Source of the DNA: Candidatus Woesearchaeota archaeon
GTDB lineage: Archaea > Nanobdellota > Nanobdellia > Woesearchaeales > UBA9642
Direction of reading: 5' to 3'
NCBI GenBank assembly: GCA_003599145.1
Contig: QZIT01000005.1
Location: 127,961-191,960 of the forward strand
DNA: 64,000 nucleotides
The position numbers and the translations under genes are program-made. Below are positions 9,446 to 57,211 of the stretch, in pieces (position 1 is the first letter of the stretch; each line of letters opens with the position of its first letter). The notes beneath the pieces are model-generated. The model did not search any database and was not told the DNA's origin. It worked only from the letters and a program-made list of their open reading frames with translations.

Positions 9446-11074
9446 TCAGTACTCAGGCATTCCGCCCATTCCCTGAGGAGGACTATCATTGCCTCCTGAA
9501 GTTCCTGCAATGACATCATCAATTCTTAAAATCATGACAGCAACTTCTGAAGCAGAGCTGATGGCTTGGGTTTTTATTTTTAAAGGCTCAATAACTCCTT
9601 CTTTCCATGCGTCCATGGTTTTTCCTGTGAATACATTGATTCCCTGCCATTTAAGATTTTTATCATGCGCTGCTTTTAATTCTGTCATGACGTCTATCGG
9701 ATCTAAGCCTGCATTTTCAGCCAATGTTTTGGGAATGACTTCCATAGACTCAGCAAATGCGTTAACTGCCAATTGTTCCCTGCCTGAAAGAGATTCTGCA
9801 TATTTTTTCAATTGCTTTGCAAGTTCCACCTCAACAGAGCCTGCTCCTGCAACAACTTTATTATTTTTTAATGCTGCCGCAACATCTCCAAGAGCATCAT
9901 CCATTGCTCTTTTAATTTCGTCAACAACATGCTCTGTGCTTCCATGCACTAATATAGTGACTGCTTTTGGGTTTTTGCACTCTCGAACATAAGTCATGGC
10001 CTCTTCATCCTTATGCTTTACTTCTTCAACAATACCTGCGTTTCCCAAATCTTTTACCGTCAATTCATCCAAATTAGTAACAATGCTTGCACCTGTCGCC
10101 TTAGCCAAATTATCCATGTCGCTTTTCTTTACTCTCCTGCATGCATAGATTCCTTTTTTAGCCAAAAAATGTTGGGCCATATCATCAATACCCTTTTGGC
10201 AGAAAACAACATTTGCACCAGACTGCTCTATCTTGGAAACCATTTTTCTGAGCATGTTCTCTTCCATATCCAAAAATGCCTGCATTTTTTCAGGGTCGCT
10301 TATCTGGATTTTCGTTTCAATCTCCGTATTTTTTATTTCAAGCGCAGAATCTATCAAGACAATTTTTGCATCTTTAATTTTTTTTGGCATTGCACTATGA
10401 ACTTTTTCTTTGTCAACAACAACGCCTGATATTAATTCAGAGTCTTCAACGCTGCCACCAACTTTTTTCTCTATTTTGATGGAATCCATGTCAAAAGAAT
10501 GTCCAGTGTTGCTTTTTTCCATGACTGATTTTACTGCTTTAACCGTTAAATCCGCCAATTGCTCCTTTGCATTCTCAGCGCCTTTTCCGGTCATTGCAGT
10601 CATGGCAATTTTTTTTAAGACATCAGCATTATCTTCAGTAATCGTTTCTGCTATTCTGTTTAAAATTTCCTGCGCTTTTTCATTGGCCATTCGGTAGCCT
10701 TTTGCCAAAACAGTAGGATGAATGTTCTGATCTAAAAGAGCTTCTGCCTTTGCAAGCAGTTCTCCTGCAAGAACAACGGCTGTAGTTGTTCCATCGCCAA
10801 CTTCATCTTCCTGCGTTTTTGCTATTTCAACAATCATTTTCGCAGAAGGATGCTCTATCTTAATTTCCTGCAAGATGGTAACGCCATCATTAGTTACGGT
10901 AATATCTCCTAAAGAATCAACAATCATTTTGTCCATGCCTTTTGGGCCTAGTGTTGTTCGTACTGTTTCTGCAACCATTTTAGCAGCCATAATGTTTGTT
11001 TTTTGCGCGTTCTTTCCTGTAGTTCTTTGCGTACTTTCAGGCAAGATAAATATAGGTTGTATTTGATTTGTCAT
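9446..11074 (-). CDS. ths: thermosome subunit (group II chaperonin)
   Basis: [27 protein letters not shown]-terminal GGMGGMPEY tail. Confidence 0.95.
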
Positions 11075-15879: not shown

Positions 15880-17766
15880 TTGCCAAGTGAAATCATTAAA
15901 GAAATACTGAAGGACTTACCGACAAATTCCATCAGCGATGCTGTCTTTGAAGGAGCCAACATAGTGCTCTACACCAAAGACAAGGAATTTTTTCTCGATA
16001 ATAAAGGCATTATTAAACAGATTGTTGACAAAATAAAGAAAAGAATCGAATTGCGCCCTGATCCCAGCATTTCTTTGGAGCAGGAAAAAGCAGAAAAAAT
16101 TATAAAAAAAATCATTCCTGAAGATGCAAAAGTTGACAAAATTATTTTTGACCCTCAACGGTCCATGGTTGTTATAGAAGCAGAAAAACCCGGCGTTGCC
16201 ATCGGCAAAAACGGAGAAATCCTTCAGGAAATAAGGGAAAAAACGCTTATGGTTCCTTTGATAAGAAGAACACCTCCTATCAGGTCTCAAATCATTGAAA
16301 ATATCCGAGAAGTTTTGTATCAGAATAACGATTACAGAAGAAAATTTCTTCATAAAACAGGAGAAAGAATTTACAACGGATGGTTAAGGCAGAAAAAGGA
16401 AGAATGGGTTAGATTAACCTATTTAGGAAGTGCAAGAGAAGTCGGCAGAAGCTGCTTGTTTTTGCAAACTCCTGAATCTCGAATTTTGCTTGACTGCGGG
16501 ATTAATGTTGCCGATGCTGACCAGATGTATCCTTATCTTGAAGCTCCTGAATTTGACATTAAAGAGTTAGATGCAGTCATTGTTTCTCATGCACATATAG
16601 ACCACTGTGGTTTAGTTCCATATTTATTTAAGTTTGGTTATCGCGGTCCTGTATACTGTACTGCACCAACAAGGGACATGATGTCCTTAATTCAATTGGA
16701 TTTTGTAAAGATTCAAAGAGATGATGGAAAAGAACCTATCTACAACAGCGATGAAGTCAAAGAAATGGTCAAGCACACCATTGTTCTAGACTTTGAAGAA
16801 GTTTCGGATATTACGCCAGACGTCAGAATAACGTTTTACGATGCAGGACACATTTTAGGAGCTGCCATGGTGCATATTCATGTTGGCAATGGCTTGCATA
16901 ATCTGCTTTACACTGCAGATATCAGATATGCAAAAACAAACATGTTAAGCCCTACGGTCACTAATTTTCCAAGGCTGGAAACCCTTGCCATTGAAGCTAC
17001 GTATGGAGGAAAAGACAATATCAACCCTAATCCGGGACAGGAAGATGAAGAGTTATCTGAAATCATCATCAATACAGTCAACAGAAACGGAAAAGTGCTT
17101 ATGCCTGTTTTGGGAAGCGGAAAGGCACAGGAGATTATTGTGCTGATTGAAAGGCTTATCAGGCAAAAAAAAATGCCAGAAATTCCTGTTTATATTGATG
17201 GCATGGTATGGGATATTACTGCCATTCACACAGCGTATCCTGAATATTTAAATAGCTCGGTAAGACAGCAAATTTTCAATAAAGACAACAATCCATTCCT
17301 TGCAGACAATATAAAAAGAGTAGGCAGTGGAAAGGAAAGGCAGCAGATTATTGATGAAACAGGAGCATGCATCATCCTTGCAACATCCGGCATGTTAGTG
17401 GGAGGTCCAAGTGTTGAATATTTAAGGCATTTAGGCGACAACCCTCATAACAGCCTTGTTTTAACCTCATACCAGGGTCCTGGTTCTATGGGAAGAAGAA
17501 TCCAGAACGGAGAAAAAGAGTTTAATTTTAACGGCGGTAAAGAAGTTTTGCAGCTAAAAATGGAAGTTTCAAAAATAGTCATTTCTGGCCATAGCGATAG
17601 AAAAGAGCTGATGAATTTTGTCAGCAACTGCAACCCACGCCCTAAAAAAGTCCTGGTGAACCACGGAGAAAACATTCGCTGTCTCGATCTGGCAAGCTCT
17701 ATCCACAAAGCATTGCATATAGAAACAGCCGCTCCAAGAAATTTAGACACTATTAGATTAAAGTAA
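15880..17766 (+). CDS. aCPSF1 / FttA (KH domains + metallo-beta-lactamase + beta-CASP RNase)
   Basis: N-terminal KH region, HAHIDHCG metallo-beta-lactamase motif, about 630 aa; conserved neighbour of psmB in archaea. Confidence 0.9.
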   Translation: MPSEIIKEILKDLPTNSISDAVFEGANIVLYTKDKEFFLDNKGIIKQIVDKIKKRIELRPDPSISLEQEKAEKIIKKIIPEDAKVDKIIFDPQRSMVVIEAEKPGVAIGKNGEILQEIREKTLMVPLIRRTPPIRSQIIENIREVLYQNNDYRRKFLHKTGERIYNGWLRQKKEEWVRLTYLGSAREVGRSCLFLQTPESRILLDCGINVADADQMYPYLEAPEFDIKELDAVIVSHAHIDHCGLVPYLFKFGYRGPVYCTAPTRDMMSLIQLDFVKIQRDDGKEPIYNSDEVKEMVKHTIVLDFEEVSDITPDVRITFYDAGHILGAAMVHIHVGNGLHNLLYTADIRYAKTNMLSPTVTNFPRLETLAIEATYGGKDNINPNPGQEDEELSEIIINTVNRNGKVLMPVLGSGKAQEIIVLIERLIRQKKMPEIPVYIDGMVWDITAIHTAYPEYLNSSVRQQIFNKDNNPFLADNIKRVGSGKERQQIIDETGACIILATSGMLVGGPSVEYLRHLGDNPHNSLVLTSYQGPGSMGRRIQNGEKEFNFNGGKEVLQLKMEVSKIVISGHSDRKELMNFVSNCNPRPKKVLVNHGENIRCLDLASSIHKALHIETAAPRNLDTIRLK

Positions 17767-17830
17767 GTTAAAATAGAAAATTATATAAAGCCCCAGCTCT
17801 CTCATACTACTAGCAAAAAGAGGTGTTACT

Positions 17831-18589
17831 ATGGGTGATGATCAGAAGAATTCTAAAGATTTACTCACAGCCATCACTGAGCTGAATACGTCCATCAATA
17901 AAATGATTAAGATTTTTGAGGATGCCAATCAGGAAATGATCGAAGATTACCAGAACACAAGATTGCAGATCAAAGACAAGCTCGATGAGGTAAGCGATCA
18001 GAATGAAAAGATTGCAGAAGGTATTGTAAGCTTGGCGGATATGCTTAAAAAGCCAGAAGAGCATCTTGATGAAATTCATGAACAATATCCTGTCGATACT
18101 ACCAAGCTTCAGGAAGTTTCTTTTAATAACAGAACGGGAATAATGCCTCAGCAGGAACTGCCTGAGCCTCAACAGTACGATTTCAACAGCGACGATCCCT
18201 TTGCAGGAGACCCCTTTGCACAGCAGAATGCGCCTGATAATTTTTCACAGCCTACTCAGCAAAATTACCCTCCTGCTTCGCAAAGCTACAGCGATCCCTT
18301 TGCACAGCCGCGACAATCAGCAAAAAATACACCTGATCCTTTTAGCCAACCAAAGCCTTCCCAACAGCAATATGCTCAGGATCCGTTCGCTCAGCAGGAT
18401 CCCTATGCGCAAAAAGACCCTTTTGCACAGCAGGATTTTTCTGATGGGCAATTCATGCCTCCTCGAAGGCAGGATCCGTTTGCAGAGCAAGACCCTTTCG
18501 CAAAAGGAAATCTTGACATGCCTCCTCTGCCTGATGCTCCCCAAGCACCGGAAAAAAGAGGCTTGTTTTCAAAGCTGATGAAAAAATGA
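17831..18589 (+). CDS. coiled-coil N-terminus + about 9 degenerate DPFAQQ repeats (low-complexity P/Q/F-rich protein)
   Basis: Repeats DPFAGDPFAQQ, DPFAQP, DPFSQP, DPFAQQDPYAQKDPFAQQ, DPFAEQDPFAKG; underlying roughly 18-nt DNA tandem repeats at about 18194-18505. Confidence 0.6.
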   Translation: MGDDQKNSKDLLTAITELNTSINKMIKIFEDANQEMIEDYQNTRLQIKDKLDEVSDQNEKIAEGIVSLADMLKKPEEHLDEIHEQYPVDTTKLQEVSFNNRTGIMPQQELPEPQQYDFNSDDPFAGDPFAQQNAPDNFSQPTQQNYPPASQSYSDPFAQPRQSAKNTPDPFSQPKPSQQQYAQDPFAQQDPYAQKDPFAQQDFSDGQFMPPRRQDPFAEQDPFAKGNLDMPPLPDAPQAPEKRGLFSKLMKK

Positions 18590-18957
18590 CGTCTGAAGCA
18601 GCAAAGGAGTATTTTGTTTCTTTAGTAAAGGCAGCGCAGAAATACAAATCAGCGCCAGCCGTTGAGATTATTCCAAAAGACGACGCTGTTATGATAGGAA
18701 GTGAACCTGCAGAAAAGACTGCCGTAACACAAAAAACAGGAAAGACTTCTTCAGAAGCGTCTTTGCAAAAAAAGAAAAAAAGTTTGTCAAAGAAAAAAAG
18801 AATACATAAGAAAAGCAAAAAAATAGAAAAAAAACATGGCGTACTAAAAAAGAAAACAGCCAAACTGCATCATAAAAAAACTATAAAAAAAACACAGCAT
18901 CACCATAAAACTCAAAAACATAAACTGGCAAAAAAATCACGCAAAAAAAGAGTATAA
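18586..18957 (+). CDS. lysine/histidine-rich basic protein (histone H1/Hc1-like tail)
   Basis: C-terminal about 70 aa is almost all K/H/T (KKKKSLSKKKRIHKKSKKIEKKHG...HHKTQKHKLAKKSRKKRV); ATGA start/stop overlap with the DPFAQQ protein. Confidence 0.55.
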   Translation: MTSEAAKEYFVSLVKAAQKYKSAPAVEIIPKDDAVMIGSEPAEKTAVTQKTGKTSSEASLQKKKKSLSKKKRIHKKSKKIEKKHGVLKKKTAKLHHKKTIKKTQHHHKTQKHKLAKKSRKKRV

Positions 18958-18963
18958 AAAAAA

Positions 18964-19134
18964 TTATAAGTCTTTTGCCATAACAGTTTTTCTTCCGTTT
19001 GCTTCTGCTCTCTTGATAGCATCCTTGATTAACTGCTTTGCTTTCTCATCAAGAGCGTCTGCAAAATCGCCTGCAACATTATAACCCTGAGCAAGCTCTT
19101 TTATTTTTGCCTTGACAATAACTGCATCTGCCAT
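18964..19134 (-). CDS. small histone-fold-like / DUF1931-like protein (not in ORF track)
   Basis: Own translation: MADAVIVKAKIKELAQGYNVAGDFADALDEKAKQLIKDAIKRAEANGRKTVMAKDL (56 aa). C-terminal ...ANGRKTVMAKDL mirrors the archaeal histone end ...HAGRKTIKAEDI. Confidence 0.5.
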   Translation of the reverse strand: MADAVIVKAKIKELAQGYNVAGDFADALDEKAKQLIKDAIKRAEANGRKTVMAKDL

Positions 19135-19884: not shown

Positions 19885-20418
19885 TTACGATTTGGCTTCT
19901 TGCAGAACAGTATCAACAGGCAGTTGCAAAAATTGTTCATAATCTGCAATCGCTTTATTGATCATTGCATAGGCAGCGGTTTCCGCACTTTTGAATTCAA
20001 GGGAAGTTAAAACAAAAGACTCTGTCACTTTGTGGTTCATAACTACAGGAACAGACTTAGGAACGTGAATAATAGCATGCAATCGTCGTTCATACACTTC
20101 CGGTTTGACAACCCGGCCATAGTCAATATGAATCCAATTTAAATTACCTTCTTTAACAGGACGATAAACAAAAACATCCTCTGTTTTATCTCTTGGGCTT
20201 TTTAACCCCCTTTCCTGATAAAATCTATCGCTCCTCTCAGAAGAAATACCCAGATCTCCCTGAACTGTTCCAATAGCAGGAACGTCTAGAGTCATAGTAT
20301 AGGACATATACGTCAGATACAAGGTAAGAGCTATCCTTTCTCCAAAATCTCCTGTTAATGGAAAACCTTCCAGTTTAATTTCCGGCTTTCTACTAACAAT
20401 AACTGCATCTAACGTCAT
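19885..20418 (-). CDS. hypothetical protein, paralog A (177 aa)
   Basis: Starts MTLDAVIVSR; shares length, N-terminus and C-terminal AYAMINKAIADYEQ motif with the neighbouring gene. Confidence 0.55.
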   Translation of the reverse strand: MTLDAVIVSRKPEIKLEGFPLTGDFGERIALTLYLTYMSYTMTLDVPAIGTVQGDLGISSERSDRFYQERGLKSPRDKTEDVFVYRPVKEGNLNWIHIDYGRVVKPEVYERRLHAIIHVPKSVPVVMNHKVTESFVLTSLEFKSAETAAYAMINKAIADYEQFLQLPVDTVLQEAKS

Positions 20419-20456: not shown

Positions 20457-20990
20457 TTAAAGCGGTTTAGGGATGCTGTCCTTTATGTCCTTAAAAGAAA
20501 CTTTGATTGCTCGTTTTTTGAGCCGCTCGTAATCAGATATCGCTTTATTAATCATGACGTAGGCAGCATCCTGAGCAAAAAGAAAGTTTTTATCTGTGTC
20601 ATCAAATTTCTCTATACCCTTTTTATTGTATGGAATTGCAACGATTACTGATAAATTGTCAATATATTCTGGATGGCGCATTTTTCCAGCATCTAAGGAA
20701 ATTCTTCCTTCCGGACGAGTGTCTTGTTGATGGTAGATTATATGTTCATCACGCTCAAAGGGCATATCCTTAAAATCGTCAGCGATTATCTCTATGTCTG
20801 CAGTAAGGGTGCCAAGAAAAGGAACTTGAACTTTCAGTCTATAATCAACCTTTGCGCGTGTGATAGTAAGTTTTAAGCCTTGATTGCTCGTAAGTACTCC
20901 CCCTTCATACTTGCAGTCATGAATATATCTGCCTCCTGTTGATAGCACAAGGCTGATTTCTCTAGATTCAATAACCGCATCCAAAGTCAT
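20457..20990 (-). CDS. hypothetical protein, paralog B (177 aa)
   Basis: Starts MTLDAVIESR; C-terminal AYVMINKAISDYER; tandem with paralog A, 38-nt spacer. Confidence 0.55.
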   Translation of the reverse strand: MTLDAVIESREISLVLSTGGRYIHDCKYEGGVLTSNQGLKLTITRAKVDYRLKVQVPFLGTLTADIEIIADDFKDMPFERDEHIIYHQQDTRPEGRISLDAGKMRHPEYIDNLSVIVAIPYNKKGIEKFDDTDKNFLFAQDAAYVMINKAISDYERLKKRAIKVSFKDIKDSIPKPL

Positions 20991-21669: not shown

Positions 21670-22071
21670 TTATTCTTCAGACACTTCTTTTGTCTGGCCT
21701 TTTGTCTTGTAAATCTGGGCAAAATTAGGCACAGCAACAACCATGTCTTCACTGAATCCTGCAACATCGCCTTCAATGGCGTCACAGGTTTTCTTAAGCT
21801 TGTTAATGGCTCTTTTCAATTCAACAATGTCTTTTTCTTTTAATGGCCTGATGTTGATTAAGGCAATCGTGTTTCCTTCTCTCAAGGCATCGATAATGGT
21901 TTTAATGTCAGAGAAATCTTCCATAGTAAAAGGCCTTACGATGACCTTCGTTGGCATGTCTCCCTGTTCTGTATCCAGTTCAACATAATCCTCATTAGGC
22001 GTGCCTTCTTCATCATCTTCAAAATCAGTACGGGTAAATGTTTTTTTCAATCCTGCGAAAAACTTTTTCAT
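21670..22071 (-). CDS. sepF: SepF-like cell-division protein
   Basis: VIVRPFTMEDFSDIKTIIDALREGNTIALINIRPL resembles the SepF/DUF552 core. Confidence 0.6.
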   Translation of the reverse strand: MKKFFAGLKKTFTRTDFEDDEEGTPNEDYVELDTEQGDMPTKVIVRPFTMEDFSDIKTIIDALREGNTIALINIRPLKEKDIVELKRAINKLKKTCDAIEGDVAGFSEDMVVAVPNFAQIYKTKGQTKEVSEE

Positions 22072-56482: not shown

Positions 56483-56587
56483 GTAAACACCCCCAAACTA
56501 ATAACTAATCATGCCTTTAAAAAGTTTTTTATCTTGCAAACTATATTTCGAAACCTTTTTATAGCTGTAAAACGCAAAAGTGAGAGT

Positions 56588-57211
56588 ATGGCAAAGGTAG
56601 AAAAAGTGCTTGAAAAAATTGAAAAGAGGCTTTCTGCTATTGAAAAGAATCAAAAAAAGTTGCTTGCTGTAGAAAACACTATAGAAAAAGAAGAAGAACA
56701 GGAATTAACAGGTGAAAGTGAAGAATTAAGTACGCAAAAAAAAGAAATGGATGAGCTTAAAGAGCTTGAAAAAATAGAGCACAACATTGAAAAAAGCGTT
56801 AAAATCAACCCTTTAACCAGAGTTACCTTAAAGGACTTTTCAAAGGCAATCATTGGAGCGTTTATAGGCATTATAGGACATTTTTCATTTTTTTACGGCA
56901 TAGAAATCGCAGAGCACATCTCCGTAGTGAGAGCCATTGTACTGTATATTGCTTCTTTTCTTATAGGCATGATTTATCTCTACTTTGCAGGATTCAGGAA
57001 AGTAGTTGATATGGACATTGCAAAATTTGTTCCTGTCCGTCTAGCTGTTATTTATATTACGGCAATAGCAGTCATTGTCATCGTACTGTATCTATTTGGC
57101 TTTATCACCACTCATACAACATTTTTAGAGATATTCAAATCAGTCTCTACCATCAGCATATTGGCAGTGTTAGGAGCAACAACGGCTGATTTAATAGGAG
57201 GCAAAGAATGA
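56588..57211 (+). CDS. coiled-coil N-terminus + 4-TM membrane protein
   Basis: Start set at MAKVEKVLEKIEKRL; C-terminal TM helices. Confidence 0.5.
   Translation: MAKVEKVLEKIEKRLSAIEKNQKKLLAVENTIEKEEEQELTGESEELSTQKKEMDELKELEKIEHNIEKSVKINPLTRVTLKDFSKAIIGAFIGIIGHFSFFYGIEIAEHISVVRAIVLYIASFLIGMIYLYFAGFRKVVDMDIAKFVPVRLAVIYITAIAVIVIVLYLFGFITTHTTFLEIFKSVSTISILAVLGATTADLIGGKE

What the first reader, a model, noticed from the sequence alone, without database searches (positions are those of the whole stretch)
17831..18957. Operon of a DPFAQQ-repeat disordered protein and a lysine/histidine-rich H1-like basic protein next to aCPSF1
Gene 1 is a coiled-coil head followed by about 9 degenerate DPFAQQ repeats, encoded by roughly 18-nt tandem DNA repeats at about 18194-18505. 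Gene 2 overlaps it (ATGA) and has a globular N-terminus followed by a roughly 70-aa tail almost entirely K/H/T (KKKKSLSKKKRIHKKSKK...HHHKTQKHKLAKKSRKKRV), like eukaryotic H1 or chlamydial Hc1 tails. The acidic/aromatic repeat partner and the polybasic partner look like a charge-complementary pair, possibly chromatin or condensate-forming proteins.
Basis: seen in the sequence. Interest (0 to 1): 0.5.

Follow-up and report, generated by a model that had tools for sequence, protein, structure and literature searches.

The report
DPANN acidic–basic coiled-coil gene pair
Two overlapping genes in a Woesearchaeota genome encode an acidic scaffold protein with DPF repeats and a lysine-rich partner. 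They are a derived version of an unannotated gene pair found across many DPANN archaea, usually beside a small DNA-wrapping histone gene, so they may organise DNA at the cell membrane.

Summary
Both ORFs are real, and the ATGA overlap, nine DP[F/Y] motifs and a 44% lysine tail are as described. Two details fail. The DNA is not a clean 18-nt tandem array, and gene 2 has no globular head, only an 18-residue helix. Neither protein matches Pfam, NCBIfam, PHROGs or PDB sequences, and neither is an H1 or Hc1 homologue. Gene 1 belongs to a large unannotated DPANN family (at least 486 clusters at 50% identity). The family has a helical core (DQNxKIAEGI), a Pro/Gln-rich linker and a C-terminal KKKGLF-type peptide. 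In 69 of 69 testable loci a second gene follows immediately. It is usually a basic coiled-coil protein, and only this small clade carries a polybasic tail instead. In 40 of 52 loci a face-to-face (HTkC-like) histone gene lies next, in 39 of them convergent. The linker and the C-terminal peptide sit on either partner in different lineages, and the two net charges anticorrelate, so the proteins probably form a complex. My best guess (0.35) is a membrane-anchored acidic scaffold plus a polyanion-binding partner that links chromatin to the membrane. The adjacency to aCPSF1 is incidental. Function remains inferred.

The parts
17781..17788 (+). TATA-like box (TTATATAA), 43-50 nt upstream of the gene 1 start codon. 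It suggests a promoter separate from aCPSF1.
   Evidence: Read directly from the sequence. Its function is inferred, not tested.
17820..17825 (+). Shine-Dalgarno-like GAGGTG, 5 nt upstream of the gene 1 ATG.
   Evidence: Read directly from the sequence.
17831..18589 (+). Gene 1 (protein A, NCBI tag C4573_02530): 252 aa, pI 4.4, net charge -19. It belongs to an unannotated DPANN family.
   Evidence: ORF. Homologues P0002-P0007 at E 9e-20 to 8e-8. A profile search finds 995 clusters at E<=1e-3 and 486 at E<=1e-10. No Pfam, NCBIfam, PHROG or PDB family match.
17843..18049 (+). Helical core of protein A (residues 5-73), including the family signature SDQNEKIAEGIVSLADMLKK.
   Evidence: AlphaFold2 gives one helix, residues 5-73, with pLDDT above 96. 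Invariant columns are D56, Q57, N58, K60, I61, A62, G64, A69 and D70.
18194..18508 (+). Disordered Pro/Gln-rich linker carrying nine DP[F/Y] motifs (DPFAQQ type).
   Evidence: Motif positions. Nine observed against 0.3 expected. DNA pattern found 6 times against 0.44 expected. pLDDT is about 45-56 here. TRF is negative.
18536..18586 (+). C-terminal peptide APQAPEKRGLFSKLMKK. This is the family-wide basic/hydrophobic end motif and a candidate amphipathic membrane anchor.
   Evidence: The motif [KR][KR]G[LFIM][LFIMG] is found in 39 of 79 family C-termini and 2 of 461 control C-termini. G244 and F246 are invariant. It resembles the SepF N-terminus of the same window, MKKFFAGLKK. Membrane binding is inferred.
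18586..18957 (+). Gene 2 (protein B, C4573_02535): 123 aa, pI 10.5, net charge +30. Its start overlaps the gene 1 stop (ATGA).
   Evidence: The frame stays open in 2 of 20000 shuffles. Syntenic counterparts with the same N-terminal helix and a polybasic tail are in L003, L004 and L005.
18595..18648 (+). N-terminal helix of protein B (residues 4-21, EAAKEYFVSLVKAAQKYK), conserved in the polybasic clade.
   Evidence: AlphaFold2 helix 4-21, pLDDT about 88. Compare MTSEAVKDYFAALVRAARDYK in L004, MSSDAVKDYFVALARATRNYK in L005 and MSSALAREYLLALAEASRK in L003.
18748..18954 (+). Polybasic K/H-rich tail of protein B (residues 55-123). It has no proline and shows a 7-residue hydrophobic periodicity.
   Evidence: Composition. 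Period-7 power is reached by 7 of 20000 shuffles. AlphaFold2 models a helix at 55-122 (single sequence, possibly over-predicted).
18964..19134 (-). Convergent neighbour: a 56-aa face-to-face (alpha3-truncated) histone, HTkC-like. It is positionally linked to the pair across the family.
   Evidence: Profile A5 against PDB: 9F2C (HTkC) 2.2e-15, HBb 8FVX 5.8e-13, DUF1931 9QT0 1.5e-10. Present in 40 of 52 loci, on the opposite strand in 39. R42 is invariant and aligns with HTkC R45, which is critical for the tetramer (bioRxiv 10.64898/2025.12.06.692711).

Best explanation
Genes 1 and 2 are the local, derived version of a two-gene module found across many DPANN archaea. I call the products A and B, and they probably act as one complex.

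Protein A is acidic. It has a long helix that probably oligomerises or binds B. A flexible Pro/Gln-rich tether follows, and the protein ends in a short basic/hydrophobic peptide (EKRGLFSKLMKK). That peptide most likely lies on the cytoplasmic face of the membrane, as the terminal amphipathic helices of MinD, FtsA and SepF do.

Protein B is the basic partner. In most lineages it is a coiled coil of about 180 aa, often with a lysine-rich end. In this Woesearchaeota clade the coiled coil has been reduced to an N-terminal docking helix plus a polycationic helix or tail of about 68 residues. That tail most likely binds a polyanion. DNA is the leading candidate, because a DNA-wrapping face-to-face histone gene is positionally locked to the pair.

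Together the pair would hold or organise chromatin at the membrane. The nine acidic-aromatic DPF motifs are an expansion of a short linear motif present in 1-3 copies in relatives. They could recruit a partner multivalently, or bind the K/H tail by charge and cation-pi contacts, which would buffer it or condense with it.

Shown: the gene pair and its conservation, the architecture, module swapping between the partners, the charge pattern, the histone linkage and the absence of known domains.

Inferred: the A-B contact, membrane binding, DNA binding and the cellular role.
For: - Tight coupling: 69 of 69 loci have a downstream same-strand gene. 19 have a 4-nt overlap and 22 a 1-nt gap.
- Module swapping between the partners: in L063 and L083 the Pro-rich linker and the ...KKKGLFGRLFGK end sit on B while A is only the helical core. 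In L077, L079 and L084 the Pro-rich tail is on B. This is what one expects if the two act as a single unit that needs one tether.
- Charge pattern: A is acidic and B is basic across the family, and the net charges anticorrelate.
- C-terminal motif: enriched at 39 of 79 family C-termini against 2 of 461 controls. It follows a disordered linker and resembles the N-terminus of the SepF encoded in this window. Terminal amphipathic helices after a linker are the established anchors of FtsA, MinD and SepF (bioRxiv 10.1101/2023.08.29.555414).
- K-rich C-termini recur in canonical B proteins, and L007 has a docking helix, a coiled coil and a polybasic tail together.
- Histone linkage: a face-to-face histone gene is linked in 40 of 52 loci while the outer flanks vary. 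HTkC-type histones wrap and compact DNA (bioRxiv 10.64898/2025.12.06.692711).
- DPF motif: enriched about 7-fold in the linkers of other family members, 34 observed against 4.9 expected.
Against: - There is no direct evidence for an A-B contact, membrane binding or DNA binding.
- The hydrophobic moment of the family C-termini is not higher than that of control protein C-termini (median 0.50 against 0.46, p=0.31). Many members end in only KKKGFFG. The peptide could therefore be a partner-binding motif rather than a membrane anchor.
- An HMM of canonical B proteins does not detect the window's gene 2. The equivalence rests on position plus a helix of about 20 residues.
- The histone gene is convergent, so it is not in the same operon, and published work describes alpha3 histones as single-gene units (PMC11390915).
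- The charge anticorrelation is not corrected for phylogeny.
- Polybasic tails also bind RNA, polyphosphate (AlgP, PMC9239181) and acidic lipids.
Confidence: 0.35

Rival explanations
1. Membrane cytoskeleton or division scaffold. A and B would form a coiled-coil lattice under the membrane, comparable to DivIVA, PopZ, or tethers of the ZipA and EzrA kind. The polybasic end of B would bind acidic lipids, or a partner such as FtsZ or SepF, rather than DNA. The histone adjacency would be inherited gene order only.
For: The parts list fits known membrane scaffolds: coiled coils, a Pro/Gln-rich linker and a terminal basic/hydrophobic peptide. SepF lies 2.7 kb away in this window. Canonical B matches only generic coiled-coil families. 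A conserved N-terminal DDxYELLPH peptide in most A proteins looks like a partner-docking motif.
Against: No division gene is a recurrent neighbour in 82 loci. The recurrent ones are the face-to-face histone, GluRS, the thermosome, a canonical histone and a HIT protein. SepF proximity is specific to this window. There is no sequence link to any known cytoskeletal family.
Confidence: 0.2
2. A and B would be a soluble, charge-complementary chromatin or condensate pair. B would act as a linker-histone-like DNA compactor. The acidic DPF-rich region of A would act as its chaperone or co-condensing partner, as prothymosin-alpha does with H1. No membrane would be involved.
For: Net charges are -19 and +30 here, and -27 to -32 against +63 to +96 in L003-L005. 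The anticorrelation holds across the family. The DPF motifs and Gln-rich spacers have a sticker-and-spacer layout. A DNA-wrapping histone gene is adjacent.
Against: This model ignores the conserved C-terminal KKKGLF peptide, which has no role in it. Most family members have neither DPF motifs nor a polybasic tail. B is not homologous to H1 or Hc1 and has no globular DNA-binding domain. The linker of A is only mildly acidic: net -12 over residues 108-235.
Confidence: 0.15
3. Accessory of a type IV filament or secretion ATPase. The pair would dock to, or regulate, a FlaI/GspE-like ATPase at the membrane.
For: In L080 the gene downstream of a short A homologue fuses a B-like N-terminus (MSIEF...) to the N-terminal domain of GspE/FlaI ATPases (PDB 2OAP E=1.8e-11, FlaI 4IHQ 2.6e-6). 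By eye, L082 carries a similar domain.
Against: This appears in only one or two distant loci. L082 gives no significant PDB or Pfam hit. No pilin or ATPase gene recurs near the pair in 82 loci. The window's gene 2 has no such domain.
Confidence: 0.07
4. Chaperone cofactor. The coiled-coil pair would work with the thermosome in a prefoldin-like way.
For: A thermosome gene lies immediately upstream in 23 loci, on the same strand in 21 of its 24 copies there, and is the most frequent upstream neighbour.
Against: In this window the thermosome gene is 6.7 kb away on the other strand. There is no prefoldin match in Pfam for A or B. The Pro-rich tether and terminal peptide are unexplained by this model.
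Confidence: 0.05
5. Gene 2 is not a functional protein but an A-rich open frame left after decay of the ancestral coiled-coil partner.
For: An HMM of canonical B does not detect it. It is low in complexity, and only the sequence itself was found by the word-indexed protein search.
Against: The frame stays open in only 2 of 20000 shuffles of a region that is 50% A. The ATGA coupling and the N-terminal helix are conserved in L003, L004 and L005, and a 145-aa gene with the same 4-nt overlap follows the homologue on the P0002 contig. Tail lengths differ widely among these loci. The tail has significant heptad periodicity.
Confidence: 0.03

Closest known systems
Bacterial nucleoid-membrane tethers: RacA-DivIVA and Noc (from established knowledge, not tested here)
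   Same: They share the logic of a DNA-binding basic component coupled to the membrane, through either a coiled-coil scaffold or a terminal amphipathic helix.
   Different: There is no sequence or domain homology. Here the proposed DNA binder has no folded DNA-binding domain, and the anchor sits on a separate acidic partner at the end of a disordered tether of roughly 150-160 residues. The function is not demonstrated.
Terminal membrane-targeting amphipathic helices of MinD, FtsA and SepF
   Same: All are short basic/hydrophobic peptides at a protein terminus after a flexible linker. GLFSKLMKK places its hydrophobic residues at i, i+1, i+4 and i+5. The peptide resembles the N-terminus of this genome's own SepF (MKKFFAGLKK).
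   Different: The peptide is attached to an unrelated protein. Many family members carry only KKKGFFG. The hydrophobic moment is not above that of control C-termini, and membrane binding is untested.
Linker histone H1 with its acidic partner prothymosin-alpha; bacterial K-rich proteins (Hc1, the HupB/MDP1 tail, AlgP)
   Same: All involve a very lysine-rich segment of 60-70 residues expected to bind polyanions. The pairing with an acidic disordered partner also recurs.
   Different: There is no winged-helix or Hc1 domain. The tail lacks the proline and alanine typical of H1-type tails and has heptad periodicity. The tail is a lineage-specific replacement of a coiled coil.
PopZ-type hub proteins
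   Same: Both are acidic, combine helical oligomerisation with a Pro-rich disordered region, and carry short docking motifs.
   Different: The domain order differs and there is no homology. Protein A carries a terminal basic/hydrophobic peptide and has an obligate operon partner.
Face-to-face alpha3 histone HTkC (PDB 9F2C), for the neighbouring gene only
   Same: The 56-aa neighbour matches it at E=2e-15. It ends right after the RKTxxxxD loop and keeps the Arg (R42) that aligns with HTkC R45.
   Different: It is a neighbour, not part of the operon. The literature describes alpha3 histones as single-gene units (PMC11390915) and does not report this linkage.
Eukaryotic DPF/DPW endocytic motifs that bind the AP-2 appendage
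   Same: Both are repeated D-P-F tripeptides in a disordered, Gln/Pro-rich region.
   Different: The resemblance is limited to the motif. No AP-2-like appendage domain was found here, and none was specifically searched for. The motif context (DPFAQQ, DLLGDPF) differs.

Membership tests
Linker histone H1 | Winged-helix globular domain (Pfam Linker_histone) | tested here: not met
   No Pfam hit for gene 2 at E<=0.01 apart from a sub-threshold UPF0449 match. AlphaFold2 shows only helix 4-21 before the tail.
Linker histone H1 | Disordered K/A/P-rich C-terminal tail with S/TPKK-type motifs | tested here: not met
   The tail is 44% K but has no proline and 3% alanine. It shows a period-7 hydrophobic pattern.
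Chlamydial Hc1 | Sequence match to the Hc1 family | tested here: not met
   No Pfam or NCBIfam hit.
Unnamed DPANN protein A family (gene 1) | Helical core with the DQNxKIAxGI..LADM.K signature | tested here: met
   The window protein finds P0002-P0007 at E 9e-20 to 8e-8. The signature residues are invariant. The family has 486 clusters at E<=1e-10.
Unnamed DPANN protein A family (gene 1) | Pro/Gln-rich disordered linker ending in a [KR][KR]G[LF][LF]-type peptide | tested here: met
   Residues 108-252 are 18% P and 17% Q, with pLDDT about 50. The protein ends in EKRGLFSKLMKK.
Unnamed DPANN protein A family (gene 1) | N-terminal acidic-aromatic peptide DDxYE(L/I)xP plus a helix | tested here: not met
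   The Tyr is at least 90% conserved in 137 sequences. The window protein starts MGDDQKNSKDLL and lacks it. Close relatives keep D-x-D-[YF].
Canonical DPANN protein B family (gene 2) | Position immediately downstream of A, with overlap or a gap of 10 nt or less | tested here: met
   A 4-nt overlap here. 69 of 69 loci have such a gene.
Canonical DPANN protein B family (gene 2) | Profile match to the conserved N-terminal helix and coiled coil | tested here: not met
   HMMs built without the polybasic clade do not detect the gene 2 products of the window, L003, L004 or L005, even at E<=100.
MinD/FtsA/SepF-type membrane-targeting amphipathic helix | Terminal basic/hydrophobic peptide after a flexible linker, with above-background amphipathicity | tested here: inconclusive
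   Location and motif conservation are met (39 of 79 against 2 of 461). The hydrophobic moment is 0.57, in the range of this genome's SepF N-terminus (0.63), but it is not different from control C-termini.
MinD/FtsA/SepF-type membrane-targeting amphipathic helix | Binds lipid bilayers | not testable with these tools
   Needs liposome co-sedimentation or localisation of a fluorescent fusion.
Face-to-face alpha3 histones (neighbour gene 18964-19134) | Histone fold with a truncated alpha3, similarity to HTkC, and the conserved tetramer Arg | tested here: met
   PDB 9F2C at 2.2e-15. The protein ends at ...RKTVMAKDL. R42 is invariant and aligns with HTkC R45.
ESCRT-III / PspA, prefoldin, SMC-like coiled-coil families | Significant profile match | tested here: not met
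   Only scattered sub-threshold generic coiled-coil hits for A, and for 51 B proteins scanned one by one.

The most novel reading that the evidence does not exclude
The A/B pair is a dedicated accessory system of face-to-face-histone chromatin in DPANN archaea. B would act as a linker-histone analogue that neutralises and bridges DNA wrapped on HTkC-like tetramers. A would be its acidic chaperone and, through the terminal peptide, a lamina-like tether that fixes this chromatin to the membrane. In this lineage the system would have shifted from coiled-coil pairing to multivalent DPF/poly-Lys condensation. If so, it would be the first linker-histone-plus-tether system described in archaea.
Probability: 0.12. 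Interest if true: 0.85.

Novelty: new variant of a known kind. Interest (0 to 1): 0.55.

Why it matters
DPANN archaea have very small genomes, so a two-gene module kept in many lineages is likely to matter for basic cell organisation. This one has at least 486 sequence clusters, no annotation, no Pfam or NCBIfam model and no solved relative. Its persistent placement next to a DNA-wrapping face-to-face histone gene gives a concrete, testable lead on how these ultra-small cells arrange their nucleoid relative to the membrane. I found nothing published on that question. The window's version is also a natural experiment: a coiled-coil partner replaced by a polylysine helix, alongside a nine-fold expansion of an acidic-aromatic short linear motif in the other partner.

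Tried and rejected
- Tandem DNA repeat or assembly artefact: TRF is negative, and the units are short, dispersed and differ in synonymous codons.
- H1 or Hc1 homology: no domain hits.
- Known families for A or B: Pfam, NCBIfam, PHROGs and PDB sequence searches, with single sequences, profiles and 51 B members scanned one by one, gave only generic coiled-coil noise.
- The word-indexed search with gene 2 found only itself. Its relatives were recovered through synteny instead.
- HMM link between the window's gene 2 and canonical B: negative. The only window hit, ORF 56534-57211, is a coiled-coil and transmembrane protein and was dismissed as a coiled-coil artefact.
- Hydrophobic-moment test of the C-terminal peptide: not discriminating.
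- Fold searches were not run, because both models are single helices plus disorder and matches would be meaningless.
- aCPSF1 as a functional partner: rejected, because the adjacency is not conserved.
- Literature searches for the pair, for DPANN lysine-rich nucleoid proteins and for DPANN conserved coiled-coil proteins found nothing relevant.
- The JGI name 'chromosome segregation ATPase' on one canonical B protein was treated as a coiled-coil mis-annotation.
- Repeat-number variation between strains could not be assessed, because no close relative exists in the databases.
Full report
**What is there.** The window comes from a Candidatus Woesearchaeota MAG. Genes 1 and 2 carry NCBI tags C4573_02530 and C4573_02535 and lie on a 576-kb contig. 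Gene 1 (17831-18589, 252 aa) and gene 2 (18586-18957, 123 aa) overlap by ATGA. A TATA-like TTATATAA (17781-17788) and a GAGGTG (17820-17825) precede gene 1. By inspection, this suggests the pair has its own promoter, separate from the aCPSF1/FttA gene upstream (15880-17766; Beta-Casp, KH_TffA and RMMBL domains). Gene 2's frame stays open in only 2 of 20000 shuffles of a region that is 50% A, and the other five frames contain 3-9 stops.

**Checking the observation.**
- Gene 1 has exactly nine DP[F/Y] motifs between residues 122 and 226. Composition-matched shuffles predict 0.3.
- At the DNA level, the degenerate back-translation of DPFAQQ occurs six times in 64 kb, all inside this region (expected 0.44).
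- Tandem Repeats Finder reports no array. Only runs of two or three units are adjacent, and the units use different synonymous codons. This is a peptide motif maintained by selection. It is not a recent slippage array or an assembly artefact.
- AlphaFold2, with a 137-sequence alignment, models residues 5-73 as one helix (pLDDT above 96). Everything after about residue 85 is disordered.
- Gene 2, modelled from a single sequence, gives a helix at 4-21, a low-confidence linker, and a long helix at 55-122. There is no globular head.
- The tail is 44% K and 13% H and has no proline. Its hydrophobic residues recur every seven positions (L60, L67, I73, I80, L87, L94, I100, L114). Only 7 of 20000 shuffles reach that period-7 signal.

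**Known families.** Neither protein reaches the curated threshold of any Pfam or NCBIfam model. Neither has a PHROG hit or a significant PDB relative. H1 and Hc1 membership is therefore rejected.

**The family behind gene 1.**
- The window protein finds six relatives at E 9e-20 to 8e-8.
- A profile of these, scored against 1.84 billion cluster representatives, gives 995 hits at E<=1e-3 and 486 at E<=1e-10. Most of the listed hits match through the first ~100 profile positions.
- The members that carry a source name are labelled Woesearchaeota, Nanoarchaeota or DPANN archaea. Three genome records are labelled 'uncultured Methanosarcinales', but two of them (L006, L007) sit in the MutL or GluRS context seen at other loci of the family.
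- The common architecture is:
  - an N-terminal acidic-aromatic peptide, M(A)DDxYELLPH, plus a helix;
  - a helical core with the signature DQNxKIAEGI..LADM.K;
  - a Pro/Gln-rich linker of roughly 40 to 270 residues;
  - a C-terminal KKKGLFGxLKK or KKKGFFG peptide.
- The window protein has lost the N-terminal peptide but keeps everything else.
- The terminal motif [KR][KR]G[LFIM][LFIMG] occurs in 39 of 79 family C-termini and in 2 of 461 control C-termini.

**The partner gene.** I analysed 89 related loci from the genome and metagenome scans and the contig look-ups, plus the window itself. Of these 90 loci, 82 are non-identical.
- All 69 non-identical loci with at least 450 nt downstream have a same-strand ORF of at least 100 aa. 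In 57 of them it starts within -11 to +10 nt. 19 have a 4-nt overlap and 22 a 1-nt gap.
- In 48 loci these products fall into one BLAST cluster. They are about 180 aa and basic (median pI 9.8). They have a conserved N-terminal helix (consensus ...LRRFLRHLALAAKKHEERKSAREEL...), a long coiled coil, and often a K-rich end.
- These proteins match only generic coiled-coil families.
- The coiled coil is replaced by a polybasic tail (K+R 0.32-0.54) only in the window, L003, L004 and L005. The closest homologue's contig (P0002) also carries a 145-aa gene with the same 4-nt overlap, but its sequence could not be read. L007 carries the helix, the coiled coil and a polybasic tail together.
- HMMs of canonical B do not detect the polybasic versions. 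Their equivalence therefore rests on position plus a short helix of similar character.

**Evidence that A and B act together.**
- Translational coupling is universal in the testable loci.
- The Pro-rich linker and the KKKGLF end move to the second protein in L063 and L083. The Pro-rich tail does so in L077, L079 and L084.
- A is acidic (median pI 5.3, net -5) and B basic (net +13). The net charges anticorrelate (rho -0.51; -0.41 without the window clade). This test is not corrected for phylogeny.
- In the window clade the trend is extreme: A is -19 to -32 and B is +30 to +96.

**DPF motifs.** Among 98 other family members, the linkers contain 34 DP[FYW] motifs against 4.9 expected. They often occur as a doublet (DPFANQDPFA, DPFADDPFA, DLLGDPF), and 23 of those 98 members have at least one. 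The window's nine copies are therefore an expansion of a pre-existing short linear motif. Its binding partner is unknown.

**The histone link.**
- The 56-aa gene convergent with gene 2 (18964-19134) belongs to a family present in 40 of 52 loci with room. It lies on the opposite strand in 39 of them, and within 400 nt of the end of B in 35.
- The outer flanks vary. The thermosome gene is upstream in 23 loci and GluRS downstream in 26. Others include MutL, a tRNA methyltransferase, EF-1alpha and, in this window, RpoF and L21e.
- A profile of the family hits the face-to-face histone HTkC (9F2C, 2.2e-15), HBb (5.8e-13) and a DUF1931 protein (1.5e-10).
- The protein ends right after the RKTVMAKDL loop, so it is alpha3-truncated. 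It keeps the Arg (R42) that aligns with HTkC R45, which is required for the toroidal tetramer that wraps DNA (bioRxiv 10.64898/2025.12.06.692711; classification in PMC11390915).
- The published survey describes alpha3 histones as single-gene units and does not mention this linkage.

**Interpretation.** The best-supported reading is a two-protein complex. Protein A contributes a helical core, a long flexible tether and a terminal basic/hydrophobic anchor. Protein B contributes a basic surface that binds polyanions. In this lineage B's coiled coil has been reduced to a docking helix plus a polylysine heptad helix, and A has gained multivalent acidic-aromatic motifs.
- The histone linkage makes DNA the most likely ligand. 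A membrane-chromatin tether is therefore my preferred mechanism (0.35).
- The anchor inference rests on analogy with MinD, FtsA and SepF (bioRxiv 10.1101/2023.08.29.555414) and with this genome's own SepF N-terminus. The hydrophobic-moment test did not separate the family from control C-termini, so a partner-binding role for the peptide stays open.
The ATPase idea is suggested by a fusion of a B-like N-terminus to a GspE/FlaI N-terminal domain in L080.

**Novelty and verdict.** The finding is real. It is not an H1-like oddity next to aCPSF1. It is a derived member of an uncharacterised gene pair that is widespread in DPANN archaea and positionally tied to a face-to-face histone. I found no literature on it. 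Function remains inferred, so interest is moderate to high (0.55). A bolder chromatin-accessory reading remains possible (probability 0.12).

Noticed in passing
window 18964-19134 (-); also L023:6858-7220, L024:4320-4694, L034:6443-6805, L035:6384-6758, L038:2885-3247: The 56-aa neighbour is a face-to-face alpha3-truncated histone (HTkC-like, PDB 9F2C at E=2e-15). In five related loci the gene is a fused doublet of about 120 aa, resembling the DUF1931 pseudodimer arrangement. The 3' ends of this gene and gene 2 overlap tail-to-tail (-4 or -20 nt) in nine loci.
   Followed up: partly
L080:2646-3485 (+); L082:5399-6082 (+): Downstream of a short gene 1 homologue, the partner protein carries a B-like N-terminus (MSIEF...) fused to the N-terminal domain of GspE/FlaI secretion ATPases (2OAP at E=1.8e-11). 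It stops where the ATPase domain would begin. L082 looks similar by eye but gives no significant PDB or Pfam hit, and no ATPase domain follows it.
   Followed up: partly
L063:4929-5968; L083:1974-2977; L077:4914-5676; L079:4902-5643; L084:4917-5669: Modules are redistributed between the two partners. In L063 and L083 the Pro-rich linker and the KKKGLFGRLFGK end sit on the second protein, and in L077, L079 and L084 the Pro-rich tail does. The first protein is then only the helical core of 104-133 aa.
   Followed up: yes
window 19885-20418 (-) and 20457-20990 (-): Two adjacent paralogous 177-aa genes, both starting MTLDAVI..., lie between L21e and ZPR1. Neither has a Pfam or PHROG match.
   Followed up: partly
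window 21670-22071 (-): A SepF homologue (Pfam SepF, 1.1e-10) has the N-terminus MKKFFAGLKKTF. This peptide resembles the C-terminal peptide of gene 1 in composition and pattern.
   Followed up: partly
L006, L007, L009 (genome records CAZOOV010000001.1, CAZPJY010000010.1, CAYVNN010000001.1): Three MAG records titled 'uncultured Methanosarcinales archaeon' carry the same gene 1, gene 2 and mini-histone triad. L006 and L007 also share the MutL or GluRS neighbours seen at other loci of the family. The taxonomic labels look doubtful.
   Followed up: no
window 56534-57211 (+): A 225-aa protein with an N-terminal coiled coil and a multi-pass membrane C-terminus gives a weak hit (E=0.0025 in a database of 3516 ORFs) to the N-terminal-helix profile of canonical gene 2. 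I judged it a coiled-coil artefact.
   Followed up: partly
23 related loci, e.g. L033:2523-4148; window 9446-11074 (-): A thermosome gene lies immediately upstream in 23 loci, mostly on the same strand, and is the commonest upstream neighbour of the pair. In this window it is 6.7 kb away on the opposite strand.
   Followed up: partly
P0157 (= L025:5474-5977): JGI/IMG labels one canonical partner protein 'chromosome segregation ATPase'. The protein is 168 aa of coiled coil with no ATPase domain, so this is probably an SMC-type coiled-coil mis-annotation.
   Followed up: no
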